DNA of 17,575 nucleotides from a virus (IMGVR_UViG_3300037882_000610:1-17575), one strand, 5' to 3'; shown: positions 7,227-16,838, counted from the first letter of the stretch. Translations and numbers: made by a program. The notes: generated from the letters alone by a model not told the origin.

Positions 7227-7804
7227 TCCTTACGTCCTTTCAAAGATTCACTTATCTTGCGCCGATGATCCTCAGATTTTGGAACGCCTCTTGTGGATGC
7301 ACCGTCGTAACGACCCTCTGCTCTGAGCTGCCTGATTCTCGCAGCATGCTTGAGTTTGCGCTCTGGAGTCCAAGCCTTCGTAGAGTTTTCACTCTTCTTT
7401 TGACGATGCTCAGGCGTCTGAGCCGCAAGCTGTCCAGCCCTCACTCTGGCTGATTTCACAGGGTCTGCCCACATAGCTTTTGAGGAAGCAGCCACTGCTG
7501 CTCTCTGCTCTTCAGAAAAGATAAAGCCCGGCGCGAGTCCACCTACAACTTGTTCTTCCATCAGATTCGCCCAAGCGGGCGACTCAACTATCTGGTGTAC
7601 TTTGGAAAACAGACTTGCGTACTCTGAACAAAACTTCTCATCTTCAGATGATAACACAACAAACGTGTCAACATCTTTGCCGTGAACTTTTAAGTGGCGC
7701 AGCCAATACTTCCCTGACCCAGAATACTTGAGAGGGTCTTTGGTTGTCTTACCGAAGTACATCAAGCCCGTTTTTCGATGAGTCTTGACATACAGGTGAA
7801 TCAA
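7223..7804 (-). CDS. Seg-like (GIY-YIG variant) homing endonuclease with NUMOD3 repeats
   Basis: LYVKTH..TGLMYFGKT...Y.GSG..W..HLK.HG; C-terminal PKSEDHRRKISESLKGR. Confidence 0.8.
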   Translation of the reverse strand: MIHLYVKTHRKTGLMYFGKTTKDPLKYSGSGKYWLRHLKVHGKDVDTFVVLSSEDEKFCSEYASLFSKVHQIVESPAWANLMEEQVVGGLAPGFIFSEEQRAAVAASSKAMWADPVKSARVRAGQLAAQTPEHRQKKSENSTKAWTPERKLKHAARIRQLRAEGRYDGASTRGVPKSEDHRRKISESLKGRKE

Positions 7805-9018
7805 CCTTTTTGCTCCAAATAACTGTTAGAGATACATTTGACGGAGAAAGGCGTCGTGTTGCTCTTGTAGACCTGACCCTCACGCTTCACGCCAGGGTTC
7901 ATGCCAGGGCCTTCAGCGGCTGCCAGCATCTTGTCCATGATGGAACGGCCATCAGCCGGCTCACCTTCTTGCCATAGCTTGAAGTTGAGGCTTGCTGTCG
8001 GCACATAGTCCAGGCCCGCAGCAGCGGTGTAGGCACGTGCCATGTACGGAAGAGCGTACTGCTGATCGTCGATCTTGTACACGTCATAGACGTACCACTC
8101 AGGCTTCTCCACCTTCTCGTAGTTGCCCTGGATGGTCGGTGCAATCAGCTCACCTTGGAATGCCAGAGAGCCTTCGTTGAGGCACAGCGCCTCGATCTTG
8201 GCAATCACGTCATGGTCGCGGACGTACTGAGCGAAGTGCGTGTTGCCATCGAGGTCGAGTTCGATGTTGCGGCTGCACACACCGAAGATAGCCAGAGGCG
8301 TGATGGCAGGCTTGCCAAAGGCACGGCCAAACCAATACTTCGCGGCTTGCCACAGCGTCAGCTTCTTCAGGTAGGCGGCTTCGTACTGCGCTGCACGCTT
8401 CTTAAACGCTTCAGCGAAGTGCGGACTGTCGTGACGCAGAGCATACACGGTCATGGAAGAGCCGTCAAGCTTTGTCGAGACTTCGAACGACTCGCCGCTT
8501 GCTGCTGCACGCTCGATTTGAGGCACAGCGTTTTGCACACGCTCTTGGTCAGTCTTCTGGATGAAGAACGGCCACTGGCTTGTGCGGCTTCGCTGATCGG
8601 CAGGGCCACCATTGGCAGCACGTTCCTCGGGCGGCTCGTATTTCTCAACATTGAGAAGTTCCGACACGTCATCGCCTTCGGTGAGCACACGCAGGCCCAG
8701 TACGGACTTGGACAGCTCAGGGAACGCACTGATGGGCAGGATCAGGCCTTGGCTCAGTTGCTTGCGAAGGCGGATCGTCTTCAGACGGATACGCATGACG
8801 CCATCACGTTCCTTGGCATCCTTTGCCAGGAATTCGAACGCGGGGTGTGCACCCGGCAGGAACGAGTCGATTTCGAAGTAGACGCCCAGGTCTCCAACGC
8901 TGAATTCGCCCTTCTTGACGACAACGTTCCAGCCCCCGATTTGGGCCACTTCGATTTTGTCCGCGCCCGGGATGGGCAGCAGAGAGGCGATTGCCTGGAT
9001 GCTTGCGAGTTTACGCAC
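7801..9018 (-). CDS. RNA ligase, Rnl2 / DRB0094 family
   Basis: N-terminal RKLASI...IPGADKIEVA...GW.VVVKKGEF..GD..VYFEIDS; motif I KLDGSS; GEL; YVYDV; EG.VYK; K.ISN.YL. Confidence 0.9.
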   Translation of the reverse strand: MRKLASIQAIASLLPIPGADKIEVAQIGGWNVVVKKGEFSVGDLGVYFEIDSFLPGAHPAFEFLAKDAKERDGVMRIRLKTIRLRKQLSQGLILPISAFPELSKSVLGLRVLTEGDDVSELLNVEKYEPPEERAANGGPADQRSRTSQWPFFIQKTDQERVQNAVPQIERAAASGESFEVSTKLDGSSMTVYALRHDSPHFAEAFKKRAAQYEAAYLKKLTLWQAAKYWFGRAFGKPAITPLAIFGVCSRNIELDLDGNTHFAQYVRDHDVIAKIEALCLNEGSLAFQGELIAPTIQGNYEKVEKPEWYVYDVYKIDDQQYALPYMARAYTAAAGLDYVPTASLNFKLWQEGEPADGRSIMDKMLAAAEGPGMNPGVKREGQVYKSNTTPFSVKCISNSYLEQKG

Positions 9019-13930: not shown

Positions 13931-14003
13931 ATTCGTCTAGGCATGGTAGTCTGCGCAAACTGCCAACATTGGTGATGCAGGTTCAATTCCTGCCGGGCGA
14001 GCC
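13931..14003 (+). pseudogene. Degenerate tRNA-Gly(GCC)-like element
   Basis: Intact T-arm GCAGG-TTCAATT-CCTGC and CTGCCAA loop, but broken anticodon stem, GU-rich acceptor and no CCA. Confidence 0.55.
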
Positions 14004-14083: not shown

Positions 14084-14197
14084 TGTGTTTTTAGACCCGC
14101 CAGGAGAAGAGCCTGCCAGCTCACACTCCACGAATGGCAGTTCGTGTTATTCTTGCCCAGAAAGCTTACAAAGGATAGATGGCGGGTCTAAGAGCAT
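14084..14197 (+). ncRNA. Unknown ncRNA element A (17-bp closing stem)
   Basis: 14086-14102 pairs with 14180-14196 (17 bp, 2 GU); internal alternative helices. Confidence 0.6.
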
Positions 14198-14200
14198 ATT

Positions 14201-14366: not shown

Positions 14367-14405
14367 AAGAATTTTCTTATCAGCAATGAGAAAGTGTAGT
14401 ACAAT

Positions 14406-14479
14406 GCTTCCAAGCACAAGGTGTGTCGCAGGCCTTCCAAGCCTCGCAGAGTAGGGTTCGATTCCCTCTGGACGCTCCA
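14406..14479 (+). tRNA. Atypical or degenerate tRNA-Gly(TCC)
   Basis: AGGC-CTTCCAA-GCCT, AGGG-TTCGATT-CCCT, U73-CCA; mismatches in the acceptor and T stems, aberrant D region. Confidence 0.6.
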
Positions 14480-14485
14480 GTCAAT

Positions 14486-14547: not shown

Positions 14548-14558
14548 TGTGCTACAAT
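14548..14558 (+). promoter_or_regulatory. Extended -10 promoter upstream of the hairpin array
   Basis: TGTGCTACAAT, identical to the -10 region at 12656-12666; no clear -35. Confidence 0.55.
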
Positions 14559-14577: not shown

Positions 14578-14641
14578 AGAGTGCTTCAAGCAAACTCCTA
14601 CTATTGCAAGCCATTATTCTTTTGCGAGAAAAGAGCACTCT
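14578..14641 (+). ncRNA. Array unit U1
   Basis: AGAGTGCT/AGCACTCT stem, AAGCAA motif, inner TTCT/AGAA hairpin. Confidence 0.75.
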
Positions 14642-14650
14642 GTTGAACTT

Positions 14651-14716
14651 GGGATGTTTTCAGCAAACACAACATTTTGAAAACTTTTGGTAGCCTTCAA
14701 AAGCAAACATCATCCC
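14651..14716 (+). ncRNA. Array unit U2
   Basis: GGGATG/CATCCC stem, CAGCAA, inner CTTTTG/CAAAAG hairpin. Confidence 0.75.
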
Positions 14717-14724
14717 GTTGACCT

Positions 14725-14831
14725 CTCAGAACTTAGACCTGCAAGAAAACTTGCAACCGCCCGACTGCTAGGGCTCGCGCTGGATACTGGTGCATTGCAA
14801 GCATAAGCAGCTTGCAGGTCTAAGTCTTGAG
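14725..14831 (+). ncRNA. Unknown ncRNA element B inserted in the array (perfect 15-bp stem)
   Basis: ACTTAGACCTGCAAG 14731-14745 / CTTGCAGGTCTAAGT 14811-14825; inner multibranch. Confidence 0.65.
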
Positions 14832-14846
14832 TGACTTACAAAATTT

Positions 14847-14908
14847 AGGATCGTTACAGCAACCAATATACACTTCACTTGTAATGAAACCTGTAAAAAG
14901 GCGATCCT
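14847..14908 (+). ncRNA. Array unit U3 with a Thr(UGU)-type anticodon stem-loop
   Basis: AGGATCG/CGATCCT, CAGCAA, TTCA-CTTGTAA-TGAA. Confidence 0.78.
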
Positions 14909-14917
14909 GCTGAATCT

Positions 14918-15008
14918 AGACTGAGTGCAGCAACACTCTTAAATGGAAAAACTTTTCACTACAAATGAAAACTAGACGGTTCAAATCCGTCAAAAAGAAC
15001 CTCAGTCT
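14918..15008 (+). ncRNA. Array unit U4 with an anticodon arm and a perfect T-arm
   Basis: AGACTGA/TCAGTCT, CAGCAA, TTTTCA-CTACAAA-TGAAAA, GACGG-TTCAAAT-CCGTC. Confidence 0.8.
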
Positions 15009-15017
15009 GTTGAATTT

Positions 15018-15167
15018 AGATTCGTTTCTGCAACCACATACGATAACGCCTTTTAAGCGAGTGGCATGGGTTCGAGTCCCATCTGCCGGGGTATAGTTAA
15101 CTACTCCCTAGCGGTAGCTTAGCTGGTAGAGCACTTAGGTCGAAAGACCAATCAAACCAACGAATCT
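15018..15167 (+). ncRNA. Array unit U5: YrlA-like permuted tRNA mimic with a Lys(UUU) loop
   Basis: AGATTCGTT/AACGAATCT, CTGCAA, CGC-CTTTTAA-GCG, T-arm, acceptor-like stem, D-arm, GGTCGAAAG. Confidence 0.82.
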
Positions 15168-15176
15168 GTTGAATTT

Positions 15177-15317
15177 AGGCTCCATGCTGCAAACAAACGC
15201 ATTGGAAAAGCCGCCATACGTAGGTTCGATCCCTACCCCTCCGACTAAGAGCATGTTGTGTTTTTAGACGGAGGGTAGCCAAGAGGTAAGGCAGCGGCAC
15301 GCAAAAGAGCGGAGCCT
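15177..15317 (+). ncRNA. Array unit U6: circularly permuted tRNA mimic (YrlA-like)
   Basis: AGGCTCC/GGAGCCT, CTGCAA; order T-arm, CCCTCCG/CGGAGGG acceptor, D-arm; GCCGC/GCGGC stem. Confidence 0.85.
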
Positions 15318-15327
15318 GTTGAAAATT

Positions 15328-15397
15328 AGGTTGATTTCTGCATACACAAAAATCTTCTGAACTAGGAGCGGTATCCGAGAGGGGCCGCACTCAACCT
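15328..15397 (+). ncRNA. Array unit U7
   Basis: AGGTTGA/TCAACCT, CTGCAT, TCTT-CTGAACT-AGGA, GNRA-capped hairpin. Confidence 0.72.
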
Positions 15398-15422: not shown

Positions 15423-16838
15423 ATGTCCACGTTCGCACAAGCCGTCGCCCGTCACAACAATGTGACCCATACCGAAAACGGTATGCCGGCTCTCAAATCT
15501 TCACTCAACGCTTGCGTTGACCTGTTCTTCTCTGCTGGCGCAAGCCGTGGCAAGGACATCACTGTTCCGTTCTTCACGGCTCTGGCCGAAGATCGCGACA
15601 CTGCTCTGCGTCTGCTGCTCTGGCTGCGTGACGTTCGCGGTGGTGCGGGTGAGCGTCAACTGTTCCGAGACCTTCTCGTGCAGTTGGAAGCCAAGGACGA
15701 GGCAGCTCTGCTGGACATCTTCCACCTGATTCCTGAGATGGGTCGCTGGGATGACCTGTTCGTCTTTAAGACGAAGGTCTGGCAAGATGCCGCATTCCAG
15801 TTCGTGGGCGAAGCTCTGATGGACGGCAACGGTCTGGCTGCCAAGTGGACTCCTCGCAAGGGTGATGTCGCTGTGGCCTTCCGCAAGTTCCTGGGCTGGT
15901 CTCCGAAGTTCTACCGCAAGTCGCTTGTTGAGCTGTCCAACACTGTTGAGCAGAAGATGTGCGCTGGTCAGTGGGACGCAATCGAATTCGGCAAGCTGCC
16001 GTCGCTGGCTTCGGCCCGCTACCAGAAGGCTTTCCTGAAGCGTGCTCCTGAAGCCTACACTGCCTACAAGGCGGCCCTTGTGAAGGGTGAGGCGAAGATC
16101 AACGCTGCGGGTGTATATCCGTATGACATTCTGAAGAGCACTCGCTTCGGCGATGAAACTGTGGCGGAAGCCCAGTGGAAGGCTCTCCCGAACTGGTTGA
16201 CCGAAGGCACGGGAATCCTCCCGATGATTGACGTGTCGGGCTCTATGGGTGTTCCTGCGGGTGGCTCTGGCGTTCTGTCTTGCATGGACGTGGCAATCTC
16301 CCTGGGCGTGTACATTGCTGACAAGCAGCAAGGTCCGTTCCACGGTGCATGGCTTTCGTTCAGCTCGCGTCCGACGCTGGGTTTCCTGAATGATGCTTGG
16401 TCATTGAAGCAGAAGTTCAATGCGACGCAGCAAGGAGCTGGTTACACGACCAACATCCAAGGTGCGTTCAGTGAAGTTATGACGGTTGCAAAGCGCAACA
16501 GTGTTGCACCGACAGACATGCCGAAGTACATTGTCGTGTTGAGCGATATGCAGTTCGATGACGGACAAGTTGATGGCAACAGCACTGGCGCTTTCGCAAT
16601 GGCAAAGTCCATGTACGAAGCTGCTGGCTACGAGCTGCCTACGCTGGTCTTCTGGAACCTGAATGATCGTGGGAACAACACTCCGGTGGAGTTCAACGAG
16701 ATGGGCGTCGCGATGGTCTCTGGCTTCAGCCCGAGCATCATGCAAAGCGTTCTGGGTGCCAAGCATGTCAGCCCTGTGGACATCATGAACGAGACCTTGC
16801 AGAAGGATCGTTACGATTACACGCAACGTTCTCAGTAA
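15423..16838 (+). CDS. DUF2828 / TROVE-like vWA protein (Ro60/Rsr-like)
   Basis: N-terminal TENG...S.LNAC.DLFF..GASRG, WLRDVRGG.GER, GRWDD, AKW.PR; C-terminal MIDAS DVSGSM, TTNIQ, LSDMQFD, VFWNL, SGFSP; AAGGAG RBS. Confidence 0.85.
   Translation: MSTFAQAVARHNNVTHTENGMPALKSSLNACVDLFFSAGASRGKDITVPFFTALAEDRDTALRLLLWLRDVRGGAGERQLFRDLLVQLEAKDEAALLDIFHLIPEMGRWDDLFVFKTKVWQDAAFQFVGEALMDGNGLAAKWTPRKGDVAVAFRKFLGWSPKFYRKSLVELSNTVEQKMCAGQWDAIEFGKLPSLASARYQKAFLKRAPEAYTAYKAALVKGEAKINAAGVYPYDILKSTRFGDETVAEAQWKALPNWLTEGTGILPMIDVSGSMGVPAGGSGVLSCMDVAISLGVYIADKQQGPFHGAWLSFSSRPTLGFLNDAWSLKQKFNATQQGAGYTTNIQGAFSEVMTVAKRNSVAPTDMPKYIVVLSDMQFDDGQVDGNSTGAFAMAKSMYEAAGYELPTLVFWNLNDRGNNTPVEFNEMGVAMVSGFSPSIMQSVLGAKHVSPVDIMNETLQKDRYDYTQRSQ

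What the first reader, a model, noticed from the sequence alone, without database searches (positions are those of the whole stretch)
15177..15317. Complete circularly permuted tRNA inside unit U6
Seen, in order: GCCGC (anticodon-stem 3' strand, 15210-14), CATAC (variable), GTAGG-TTCGATC-CCTAC (T-arm), CCCTCCG (acceptor 3' strand) plus A, a hairpin linker, CGGAGGG (perfect acceptor 5' strand), TA, GCC-AAGAGGTAA-GGC (D-arm), A, GCGGC (anticodon-stem 5' strand). The tRNA is opened at the anticodon loop and grafted onto the array frame, with the acceptor end closed. This matches the T-acceptor-D order known for YrlA Y RNAs. Alternatively, it could be a permuted tRNA gene matured by circularisation and cutting, as in some algal and archaeal permuted tRNAs.
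Basis: partly seen in the sequence, partly recalled or inferred. Interest (0 to 1): 0.75.

Follow-up and report, generated by a model that had tools for sequence, protein, structure and literature searches.

The report
Permuted tRNA mimic on phage Y-RNA
Unit U6 is a small non-coding phage RNA that carries a complete but circularly rearranged tRNA look-alike on a conserved "handle", just upstream of a gene for a Ro60-shaped ring protein. It is most likely that protein's partner RNA (a Y-RNA-type tRNA mimic), not a real tRNA gene.

Summary
The order is anticodon-stem 3' strand, variable region, T arm, 7-bp acceptor closed by a hairpin, D arm, anticodon-stem 5' strand, all on a 6-bp outer stem.

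ARAGORN calls the re-circularised sequence a tRNA; it called 0 of 300 shuffles and did not call the genomic order.

An ortholog in a related virus (L045:2353-2472) keeps all 26 pairs, 10 of them through changes on both sides. A covariance model built from the two finds full-length relatives in dozens of phage loci that carry the same protein gene.

That gene (15423-16838) matches Pfam DUF2828+DUF7788, but its model has the Ro60 fold. Top structural hits are Thermus phage phiLo Ro60 and Xenopus Ro.

U6 therefore works like YrlA. It fails Rfam's YrlA threshold (18 vs 69 bits) and lacks the GNCGAA motif; its handle carries CWGCAA instead.

The rival reading, a permuted tRNA gene matured by circularisation, is not supported: no BHB motif, and C33 in the would-be anticodon loop.

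The 24-nt linker is specific to U6. Its ends match those of the intervening segment of a two-piece tmRNA precursor, and also the flanks of a nearby RNA element, so the acceptor end may be opened by processing.

This scan has already noted the handle/DUF2828 class on many other genomes.

The parts
14550..14558 (+). Promoter-like extended -10 (TGCTACAAT) ahead of the array. This is an inferred transcription start region for U1-U7 and the Ro60-like gene.
   Evidence: Read. The relatives L002 and L045 have TTGACA-N16/17-TACAAT at the same place before their arrays. The consensus scan did not list the window's site because its -35 is weak. No terminator-like site lies between the array and the ORF.
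14578..15397 (+). Array of seven head-to-tail handle units (U1-U7). U6 is the sixth.
   Evidence: The repeat family of the frame has 6 copies. Each unit folds with its own closing stem. Arrays of the same kind lie upstream of the homologous gene in L002 and L045.
15178..15183 (+). Handle stem, 5' strand (GGCUCC). It pairs with 15311-15316.
   Evidence: Helix 1 is 99% paired in 17 sequences, and 5 of its 6 pairs covary.
15187..15194 (+). Handle motif CUGCAAAC (family consensus CWGCAA), 2-3 nt after the stem. It is the presumed contact for the Ro60-like protein.
   Evidence: It is conserved in every unit of the window and in relatives, including Felixounavirus-type units. Binding is inferred, not shown.
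15199..15209 (+). Internal-loop motif GCAUUGGAAAA, 5' of the tRNA-like body.
   Evidence: The ortholog L045e carries GCAAUGGAAA at the same position.
15210..15214 (+). Anticodon-stem equivalent, 3'-type strand (GCCGC). It pairs with 15294-15298.
   Evidence: There are 5 of 5 pairs in U6 and in L045e, 2 with double changes. The helix is weaker across the wider family (78.6% paired).
15215..15219 (+). Variable-region equivalent (CAUAC). C15219 is C48, the partner of G15.
   Evidence: Read.
15220..15236 (+). T arm (GUAGG-UUCGAUC-CCUAC).
   Evidence: Helix 3 is 100% paired.
15237..15244 (+). Acceptor 3' strand (CCCUCCG) plus discriminator-like A. No CCA is encoded (the sequence reads ACUA).
   Evidence: Read, the five tRNA genes next to U6 (Thr, Leu, Arg, His, Ser-GCU) end in an encoded CCA.
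15245..15268 (+). Linker hairpin (CUAAGAGCA / UGUUUUUAG with a small loop). It is specific to U6.
   Evidence: Fold. The ortholog has a 4-nt loop instead. The same two strings flank element A and occur nowhere else in the 81.6-kb genome. They are identical to the ends of the intervening segment of a two-piece ssrA.
15269..15275 (+). Acceptor 5' strand (CGGAGGG), giving a 7-bp stem with C1-G72.
   Evidence: Helix 4 is 96.6% paired, and 6 of its 7 pairs covary.
15276..15293 (+). U8-A9, the D arm (GCC-AAGAGGUAA-GGC) and A26.
   Evidence: Helix 5 is 100% paired.
15294..15298 (+). Anticodon-stem equivalent, 5'-type strand (GCGGC).
15299..15304 (+). Internal-loop motif ACGCAA, 3' of the tRNA-like body.
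   Evidence: It is identical in L045e. Together with the A before 15210 it gives the loop ACGCAAA in the re-circularised form.
15311..15316 (+). Handle stem, 3' strand (GGAGCC).
15317..15327 (+). Conserved A/U-rich spacer (UGUUGAAAAUU) between U6 and U7. It may be a site where the units are separated; this is inferred.
   Evidence: Repeat family D2.
15423..16838 (+). Gene for the Ro60-like ring protein (471 aa; Pfam DUF2828 + DUF7788). It is the presumed partner of the array RNAs.
   Evidence: Pfam. AlphaFold model with pLDDT 82 and pTM 0.81. Foldseek top hits are phiLo Ro60 9kop/9l5y, Xenopus Ro 1yvr and D. radiodurans Rsr 2nvo, with E from 5e-10 to 1e-7. D270, S272 and S274 are invariant, in a DxSxS pattern like a MIDAS site.
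14084..14199 (+). Element A, a structured RNA between tRNA-Leu and tRNA-Arg. Its basal helix uses the same two strings as the U6 linker.
   Evidence: Fold at -51.3 kcal/mol, z = -6.45. Exact repeats.
7801..9018 (-). RNA ligase gene (context: RNA-repair enzymes in the same phage).
   Evidence: Pfam PHA02142 OB-fold plus RNA_ligase.

Best explanation
U6 is one module of a seven-unit non-coding RNA array in a phage of about 82 kb. Each unit is closed by a 'handle': a 6-bp stem followed by CWGCAA. The array lies immediately upstream of, and on the same strand as, a gene for a Ro60-fold protein of the DUF2828/DUF7788 family.

I propose that the handle is the binding site of that ring protein, as the stem of a Y RNA is for Ro60. 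U6 then displays an L-shaped tRNA mimic built from T arm, 7-bp acceptor arm, D arm and a 5-bp anticodon-stem equivalent. The place of the anticodon loop is taken by the handle.

By analogy with Rsr-YrlA and phiLo Ro60-Yrl particles, the tRNA-like body would tether or gate the ring protein towards tRNA-recognising enzymes or an exoribonuclease during infection.

Shown here: the structure, its conservation by compensatory change, the Ro60 fold of the neighbouring gene product, and the co-occurrence of such units with that gene in many phages.

Inferred: transcription, protein binding, and the downstream function.

A sub-hypothesis, at about one in three, is that the U6-specific linker is a processing helix borrowed from two-piece tmRNA precursors. 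The acceptor end would then be opened (RNase P on the 5' side, trimming and CCA addition on the 3' side), giving a two-piece RNA as described for M. smegmatis YrlA.
For: - Structure: the MFE fold gives exactly the permuted cloverleaf on the outer stem, z = -3.5. ARAGORN calls the re-joined halves a tRNA, and of 300 shuffles.
- Conservation: L045e, from a virus whose Ro60-like protein is 65% identical, keeps 26 of 26 pairs with 10 double-sided changes, against 1-2 in slid controls.
- Model search: model R1 finds full-length matches on the gene strand in dozens of the 97 loci that carry the homologous gene. One lies inside the tRNA cluster of a Felixounavirus, between tRNA genes and overlapping none.
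- Family alignment: 17 sequences are 96.5% paired, 21 of 26 pairs covary, and slid controls reach at most 48%.
- Partner gene: Ro60 fold with a ribosome-binding site, 107 nt downstream.
- The YrlA model aligns U6 in the T/acceptor/D register.
- Precedents: YrlA next to Ro60 in bacteria and phages, and RNase P cleavage plus CCA addition of M. smegmatis YrlA with its 7-bp acceptor (PMC4201824). The phage phiLo Ro60 binds two upstream Y-like RNAs and host PNPase (PMC12135203).
- Linker: its ends are identical to those of the intervening segment of a two-piece ssrA. The same strings flank element A.
Against: - There are no expression or binding data of any kind.
- U6 scores far below the YrlA gathering threshold and has no GNCGAA motif.
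- The protein matches Pfam DUF2828+DUF7788; the scan returned no other family, and it has no sequence-level hit to solved Ro60 structures. Y-RNA-type binding is therefore an extrapolation from fold and synteny.
- In Felixounavirus-type phages the unit lies about 1 kb downstream of the gene, inside the tRNA cluster, so adjacency is looser there.
- The anticodon-stem equivalent is poorly conserved outside U6 and L045e (78.6% paired).
- My simple handle pattern has a high background: 340 on the gene strand, 147 on the opposite strand and about 100 in shuffles.
- Local beta_tmRNA hits of similar score (model positions 86-150) turn up in many bacterial genomes. The model-level hit alone is therefore weak; only the string identity of the linker ends is specific.
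Confidence: 0.72

Rival explanations
1. U6 is a true circularly permuted tRNA gene. The precursor would be cut at its ends and ligated into a circle, perhaps by the phage RNA ligase. It would then be opened at the acceptor linker by RNase P and a 3' nuclease and given CCA, yielding a working tRNA. The loop ACGCAAA would read as Cys, anticodon GCA.
For: - All four arms and the tertiary-contact nucleotides are present.
- With its own flanks as the loop, ARAGORN calls tRNA-Cys(gca) for U6 and for the ortholog L045e.
- ACGCAA is identical in both.
- The acceptor stem has 7 bp, and the linker resembles a natural leader/trailer helix.
- The phage encodes an RNA ligase.
Against: - No bulge-helix-bulge motif can be drawn at the ends. 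There is a 6-bp stem, a 2-nt bulge on one strand only, and 21 unpaired nucleotides on the 5' side. BHB is the defining processing signal of known permuted tRNA genes (PMC3978253).
- From established knowledge, bacteria lack the splicing endonuclease.
- The loop would have C33 instead of the near-universal U33.
- The same closing stem and motif close units with no tRNA-like body at all (U1-U3, U7), so the frame is not a tRNA-specific junction.
- Wider family members lack the anticodon stem.
- ARAGORN already calls a tRNA-Cys(gca) among the phage's 21 tRNAs.
- CCA is not encoded here, unlike in the five tRNA genes next to U6 (read).
Confidence: 0.03
2. U6 acts on its own as a tRNA decoy and needs no Ro60-like protein. 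It would soak up a host tRNA-targeting defence nuclease, a tRNA-modifying enzyme or another tRNA-binding factor. The handle would serve only for stability or for processing of the array.
For: - The tRNA mimicry is complete.
- The phage invests heavily in tRNA biology, with 21 tRNAs and an RNA ligase.
- In Felixounavirus-type phages the unit sits inside the tRNA cluster rather than beside the gene.
Against: - The handle is conserved across very different bodies and travels with the Ro60-like gene on the same strand.
- The anticodon loop, the usual target of anticodon nucleases, is exactly what U6 lacks.
- Known tRNA-like Y RNAs are bound by Ro60 (PMC4201824).
Confidence: 0.12
3. U6 is a cis-acting part of the long 5' leader of the Ro60-like mRNA, for example an autoregulatory or stabilising structure, and is not a separate RNA.
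For: - No terminator-like site lies between the array and the ORF.
- Stripped-down handle-like hairpins lie directly in front of the start codon in other homolog loci, such as L008 and L016.
Against: - U7, not U6, is the unit next to the start codon.
- In many phages the homologous unit lies downstream of the gene.
- A full tRNA mimic is not needed for autoregulation.
Confidence: 0.06
4. U6 is a decaying remnant of duplicated tRNA genes with no function, or the stretch encodes the 71-aa minus-strand ORF at 15175-15390.
For: - A mechanical ORF exists there.
- Permutation by duplication and truncation is a plausible origin.
Against: - Ten double compensatory changes with no broken pair against the ortholog, and family-wide covariation, show selection on the RNA structure.
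- The minus-strand ORF is not conserved in L045.
Confidence: 0.02

Closest known systems
YrlA Y RNAs of bacteria and mycobacteriophages (Rfam RF02553; Chen et al. 2014, PMC4201824)
   Same: It is a non-coding RNA on the same strand as, and close to, a Ro60-type gene. A terminal stem carries a tRNA-like domain in the order T arm, closed acceptor-like stem-loop, D arm. The T- and D-loop nucleotides are conserved. Like M. smegmatis YrlA, which is cut by RNase P and receives CCA, it has a 7-bp acceptor.
   Different: It scores 18.3 bits against a gathering score of 69. It has no GNCGAAN0-1G motif; the handle has CWGCAA instead. Its partner protein matches Pfam DUF2828/DUF7788; the scan returned no TROVE match. 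It has a clean 5-bp anticodon-stem equivalent. It is one of seven units in a tandem array that share one handle but carry different bodies. Its linker is a 24-nt hairpin.
Thermus phage phiLo Ro60 with Yrl1/Yrl2 (PMC12135203; PDB 9KOP, 9L5Y)
   Same: A phage-encoded protein with the Ro60 fold (the best structural match of the window's protein) has several Y-like RNAs encoded directly upstream.
   Different: The phiLo RNAs were defined by a CGAA motif and a stem-bulge-stem structure, and are not described as tRNA-like. There are two RNAs, not seven. Binding and PNPase recruitment were measured there; nothing has been measured here.
Two-piece (permuted) tmRNA genes of the betaproteobacterial type (Rfam RF01850)
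   Same: The gene order is T arm, acceptor 3' strand, intervening segment, acceptor 5' strand. The two ends of the U6 linker (CUAAGAGCAU and GUGUUUUUAGA) are identical to the ends of the intervening segment in a genuine two-piece ssrA (L103), and they fit the Rfam consensus.
   Different: The match is local only (22-25 bits against 84). U6 has no tag reading frame, no pseudoknots and no G3:U70 pair. It has a normal D arm, and it sits on a handle.
Circularly permuted tRNA genes of red and green algae and Thermofilum (PMC3978253)
   Same: The 3' half lies upstream of the 5' half, the acceptor strands are joined by an intervening sequence, and the break lies in the anticodon-loop region.
   Different: U6 has no BHB motif and no canonical anticodon loop, and it comes from a bacterial virus. 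The ends are closed by a handle shared with units that are not tRNA-like.

Membership tests
YrlA (Rfam RF02553) | Score at or above the curated gathering score (69 bits) | tested here: not met
   U6 scores 18.3 bits (model positions 23-85) and U5 scores 21.2 bits.
YrlA (Rfam RF02553) | tRNA-like domain in the order T arm, stem-loop in the acceptor position, D arm, with conserved T and D loops | tested here: met
   MFE fold, alignment to the YrlA model and covariation.
YrlA (Rfam RF02553) | GNCGAAN0-1G motif near the 5' end (proposed Ro60 contact) | tested here: not met
   There is no CGAA anywhere in 15178-15316. The conserved 5' motif is CUGCAAAC.
YrlA (Rfam RF02553) | Encoded within 4 kb of, and on the same strand as, a Ro60 ortholog | tested here: met
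   U6 ends 107 nt upstream of the start of the ORF at 15423-16838 (+). The protein has the Ro60 fold, but Pfam matches only DUF2828/DUF7788.
YrlA (Rfam RF02553) | Bound by Ro60/Rsr in vivo, with tRNA-type modifications (pseudouridine 55, dihydrouridine) | not testable with these tools
   This needs immunoprecipitation and modification mapping.
Circularly permuted tRNA genes | 3' half encoded upstream of the 5' half, with acceptor strands that pair across an intervening sequence | tested here: met
Circularly permuted tRNA genes | Bulge-helix-bulge motif formed by leader and trailer at the junction | tested here: not met
   The ends form a 6-bp stem, a 2-nt bulge on one strand and a large asymmetric loop. 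The definition is taken from PMC3978253.
Circularly permuted tRNA genes | Joining the ends restores a canonical 7-nt anticodon loop (U33, purine 37) | tested here: inconclusive
   The loop ACGCAAA has 7 nt and A37, and ARAGORN accepts it as Cys(gca), but position 33 is C.
Circularly permuted tRNA genes | Circular RNA intermediate and a mature aminoacylated tRNA | not testable with these tools
   This needs circular RT-PCR and acid gels.
Two-piece tmRNA (RF01850 / RF04321) | Full-length match over the gathering score, with tag reading frame and pseudoknots | tested here: not met
   The hit is local (model positions 86-150), 22.5-25.2 bits against 84. ARAGORN finds no tmRNA.
Two-piece tmRNA (RF01850 / RF04321) | G3:U70 alanine identity pair in the acceptor stem | tested here: not met
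   The third pair of the U6 acceptor is G-C.
Handle RNAs next to DUF2828 Ro60-like genes (a class noted by this scan; I found no published family) | A closing stem of about 6 bp that covaries, followed after 2-3 nt by CWGCAA, on the strand of a DUF2828 gene | tested here: met
   The pattern is enriched on the gene strand.

The most novel reading that the evidence does not exclude
U6 is made as a closed RNA. It is then opened at its acceptor end by the host's own tmRNA/tRNA maturation enzymes, because its linker copies the leader-trailer helix of two-piece tmRNA precursors. The product would be a two-piece, CCA-ended tRNA mimic that looks like a tRNA broken in the anticodon loop, held together by the handle on the Ro60-like ring. 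Such a particle could serve as bait or as a scaffold that brings the ring protein, and perhaps the phage RNA ligase, to cleaved tRNAs during the contest with host anticodon nucleases.
Probability: 0.2. Interest if true: 0.8.

Novelty: new variant of a known kind. Interest (0 to 1): 0.58.

Why it matters
Ro60 and its Y RNAs are known from animals, some bacteria and a few phages. What the tRNA-like domain of bacterial Y RNAs is for remains open.

Here the same design recurs in a different branch of the Ro60 fold (DUF2828/DUF7788). tblastn finds that branch in 710 phage records, including Felix O1-like, Listeria, Staphylococcus, Campylobacter, Vibrio and mycobacterial phages. The RNA handle differs from that of YrlA, and up to seven interchangeable bodies sit in one array.

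U6 is the most tRNA-like of these bodies. A linker borrowed from tmRNA precursors makes a concrete prediction about processing. That prediction can be tested with standard RNA work in culturable relatives such as Felix O1-type phages.

I found no paper or Rfam family that describes these RNAs.

Tried and rejected
- **Rfam at gathering thresholds** found only ordinary tRNAs in the window.
- **Megablast against GenBank phages** found no relative of the array. It found only a short tRNA-like segment at 14403-14480.
- **A degenerate DNA pattern for U6-type units in IMG/VR** gave one chance hit inside a coding region.
- **phmmer of the protein against PDB sequences** found nothing useful. The Ro60 relation appears only at the level of fold.
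- **U6 as a recent copy of one of the phage's 21 tRNAs:** local alignments are weak, so no.
- **RF01850 in 121 genomes of the class of the MAG that holds the matching ssrA:** only that MAG has a true two-piece gene. Many genomes give local 20-26-bit hits to the same model region. That devalues the model-level hit and did not identify a host.
- **My simple regular expression for the handle** is too permissive for use genome-wide. Only the strand asymmetry near the gene is informative.
- **Two matches of model R1 in L002** (2121-2238 and 1754-1822) are tandem ordinary tRNAs, the artefact Chen et al. warned about. I left them out of the family alignment.
- **The minus-strand 71-aa ORF** was rejected.
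- **Supplementary tables of Chen et al. 2014** are not held, so I could not check which 22 phages they listed.

Full report
**Where the window comes from.** The window is the first 17.6 kb of an 81.6-kb IMG/VR virus record that is about 96% complete. It carries small phage genes, an RNA ligase, PhoH and a ClpP-like protease. It also holds the start of a large tRNA region; ARAGORN finds 21 tRNAs in the genome. Read, the five tRNA genes next to U6 (Thr, Leu, Arg, His, Ser-GCU) end in an encoded CCA. GenBank phages hold no close relative of the stretch around the finding.

**Check of the observation.**
- The minimum-free-energy fold of 15166-15335 gives a 6-bp outer stem (15178-83 with 15311-16).
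- It gives a 5-bp stem GCCGC/GCGGC (15210-14 with 15294-98) and a T arm (15220-36).
- It gives a perfect 7-bp acceptor (15237-43 with 15269-75) capped by a hairpin linker (15245-68), and a 3-bp D arm (15278-92).
- The fold energy is -58.4 kcal/mol against -45.1 +/- 3.8 for shuffles (z = -3.5).
- Read against the standard tRNA numbering, U8, A14, G15:C48, G18 G19, A21, G53:C61, U54, U55, C56 and A58 are all in place.

ARAGORN calls no tRNA in the genomic order. It calls one as soon as the two halves are joined through a 7-nt loop, whatever the loop. It called none of 300 shuffles. No ordinary tRNA overlaps the stretch, and the acceptor strands pair with each other. This is therefore not the tandem-tRNA artefact that Chen et al. 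warned about (PMC4201824).

**Surroundings.** U6 is the sixth of seven head-to-tail units at 14578-15397. The units share a frame: a closing stem that differs in sequence from unit to unit, then CWGCAA after two or three nucleotides, and an A/U-rich spacer CUGUUGAAUUUAG. A promoter-like TGCTACAAT lies just before the array. The relatives have TTGACA-N16/17-TACAAT at the same place. No terminator-like site separates the array from the next gene.

That gene (15423-16838, +) has a ribosome-binding site and encodes 471 residues matching Pfam DUF2828 and DUF7788. No solved structure matches it by sequence. An AlphaFold model built on 16 homologs (pLDDT 82, pTM 0.81) matches, in this order: the Ro60 of Thermus phage phiLo, Xenopus Ro60, D. 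radiodurans Rsr and human Ro60. E-values run from 5e-10 to 1e-6 and TM is about 0.6 over the whole length. The residues D270, S272 and S274, in a DxSxS pattern like the MIDAS site of the vWA domain, are invariant. The gene product is thus a Ro60-fold protein from a sequence family that Pfam keeps apart from TROVE. tblastn finds homologs in 710 phage records, including Felixounavirus, Listeria, Staphylococcus, Campylobacter and Vibrio phages. It also finds mycobacteriophages in which the gene is annotated 'Ro-like RNA binding protein'.

**Conservation of the permuted pairing.** Two metagenomic relatives, whose Ro60-like proteins are 65-66% identical, have arrays of the same kind in the same place (L002, L045).

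The last unit of L045 (2353-2472) is the ortholog of U6. It has the same handle and the same internal-loop motifs: GCAWUGGAAA on the 5' side and ACGCAA on the 3' side. It also has the same C1-G72 pair and A73. On the named structure all 26 pairs are kept in both sequences. Ten pairs have changes on both sides and three on one side. Sliding the 3' partners by one to three columns leaves 38-56% of cells paired and at most 2 such pairs.

A covariance model of the two sequences (R1) finds full-length matches, all on the gene strand, in dozens of the 97 loci carrying the homologous gene. In Felixounavirus-type phages the unit lies about 1 kb downstream of the gene, inside the tRNA cluster. In Salmonella phage SP2 it lies between tRNA-Tyr and tRNA-Lys and overlaps no tRNA.

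I removed two tandem-tRNA artefacts. The resulting 17-sequence alignment is 96.5% paired, 21 of 26 pairs covary, and slid controls reach at most 48%. That alignment was fitted to the model and so leans towards it; the two-sequence MAFFT alignment does not. The anticodon-stem equivalent is well formed only in U6 and L045e (78.6% paired family-wide). The pairing is conserved.

**What it is.** The architecture is that of YrlA. The Rfam YrlA model aligns U6 in the register (outer stem, T arm, acceptor stem-loop, D arm, outer stem), but with only 18.3 bits against a gathering score of 69. The GNCGAAN0-1G motif that Chen et al. propose as the Ro60 contact is absent. The conserved motif here is CWGCAA.

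I therefore file U6 as working like YrlA but not as a member of that Rfam family. It belongs to a parallel family: the handle RNAs that travel with DUF2828 Ro60-like genes.

A crude pattern for the handle is enriched on the gene strand near these genes, with 340 hits against 147 on the other strand and about 100 in shuffles. The pattern has too much background for other use.

Earlier notes of this scan describe the same handle-plus-DUF2828 pairing on many other genomes, and one follow-up dealt with the neighbouring unit U5. I reached the pairing independently through. I found no paper on it: 'DUF2828' returns five unrelated papers, and 'Ro-like' with 'phage' and 'Y RNA' returns none.

**How it most likely works.** I propose three steps.
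- The array and the gene are transcribed together.
- The units are separated at the A/U-rich spacers.
- The ring protein binds the handle, and the tRNA-shaped body of U6 presents a D/T elbow and an acceptor arm to tRNA-recognising factors.

This follows what is known for related particles. YrlA carries tRNA modifications and is a substrate of tRNA enzymes. Y RNA tethers Rsr to PNPase (PMC4201824). The phiLo Ro60 binds two upstream Y-like RNAs and assembles with host PNPase (PMC12135203). Here the structure, its conservation, the Ro60 fold of the neighbouring protein and the synteny are shown. Transcription, binding and function are inferred.

**The linker.** The ortholog closes its acceptor with four nucleotides, and other family members use four to eight. 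U6 instead has a 24-nt hairpin.

Its two halves, CTAAGAGCAT and TGTGTTTTTAGAC, each occur exactly twice in the 81.6-kb genome. The other copies form, in swapped order, the base of a 116-nt structured element between tRNA-Leu and tRNA-Arg (14084-14199; z = -6.45). In both places the U-rich strand runs into the 5' strand of a G+C-rich stem, and the 3' strand of that stem runs into the AG-rich strand. The helix thus acts as a leader-trailer extension of an acceptor-like stem.

The same two strings form the ends of the intervening segment of a genuine two-piece ssrA in a proteobacterial MAG (L103; RF01850 at 272.8 bits). They also fit the RF01850 consensus, which is why U6 gives a local hit to that model. 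Sixteen of the 21 identical positions were imposed by my search pattern. Local hits of similar score to that part of the model occur in many genomes. The evidence therefore rests on the match to the independent Rfam consensus and on the exact strings, not on the E-value.

M. smegmatis YrlA, the one YrlA with a 7-bp acceptor, is cut by RNase P and receives CCA in vivo. From this I give about one chance in three that the acceptor end of U6 is opened in the same way. U6 encodes ACUA after the acceptor, not ACCA.

**Rivals.**
- *True permuted tRNA gene.* Joining the ends with the RNA's own flanks gives the loop ACGCAAA, which ARAGORN reads as Cys(gca) in both U6 and L045e. But position 33 is C, and no bulge-helix-bulge motif can be formed (definition in PMC3978253). 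The same frame closes units with no tRNA-like body, and the wider family lacks the anticodon stem. I give this rival 3%.
- *Free-standing decoy (12%) or cis-acting leader element (6%).* Neither can be excluded without experiments.
- *Decay product or minus-strand ORF.* Both are excluded by the covariation and by the lack of ORF conservation.

**Verdict.** U6 is a new variant of a known kind: a Y-RNA-type tRNA mimic with a different handle, paired with a divergent Ro60-fold protein, and set in a multi-unit array. The tmRNA-like linker is the one feature specific to U6 that makes a new, testable prediction.

No claim in this report rests on the unpublished genome G040 listed.

Noticed in passing
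window 14084-14199 (+): Element A is a 116-nt RNA between tRNA-Leu and tRNA-Arg. It has a 20-bp basal helix and three inner hairpins (z = -6.45) and matches no Rfam family. Its flanks are the only other copies of the two U6 linker strings in the genome.
   Followed up: partly
window 14725-14830 (+): A second multi-hairpin element of about 100 nt sits inside the array region, between U2 and U3. It is closed by ACUUAGACC/GGUCUAAGU, the same UUAGAC/GUCUAAG theme as element A and the U6 linker. L045 has a tRNA-like element flanked by UCUUAGG...CCUAAGAG (about L045:1545-1625).
   Followed up: no
window 14403-14480 (+): An odd tRNA-Gly(UCC)-like element scores only 20 bits with the tRNA model and is not called by ARAGORN. 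It is 88-97% identical to segments in Klebsiella, Escherichia, Salmonella and Aeromonas phages, although nothing else in the 4.3-kb query matches them.
   Followed up: no
window 14918-15008 (U4); L002:2889-2969: These units carry a tRNA-like body in normal order, without an acceptor stem: a D-loop-like UGGAAA, an anticodon-type hairpin and a T arm. The anticodon-type loop is CUACAAA in U4 and CUGCAAA in L002. The handle stem takes the place of the acceptor stem.
   Followed up: partly
window 15187-15193, 15299-15305 and the loops of U4-type units: GCAA-containing heptamers recur. The handle motif of U6 (CUGCAAA) reads like a canonical U33 anticodon loop with anticodon GCA (Cys), like the hairpin loop CUGCAAA of L002's last unit. 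The 3' internal loop ACGCAA(A) is a near copy. Most handles elsewhere have CAGCAA, so this may be coincidence.
   Followed up: no
window 15020-15165 (U5): U5 also has a lengthened acceptor arm (a 24-nt insertion in the YrlA model alignment) compared with its orthologs L002:2767-2877 and L045:2232-2341, which have short loops. Both permuted units of this phage have therefore grown their acceptor arms.
   Followed up: no
L008, L016, L017, L034 (about 100 nt before the start of the Ro60-like gene): Short hairpins or leaders containing GCAAAC or CAAACAAC-type motifs lie directly in front of the start codon of homologous genes. This hints that the protein may also bind its own mRNA leader.
   Followed up: no
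window 13933-14002 (+): A T-arm-containing stretch between tRNA-Thr and tRNA-Leu is not called as a tRNA by ARAGORN or Rfam. It may be another tRNA-like element.
   Followed up: no
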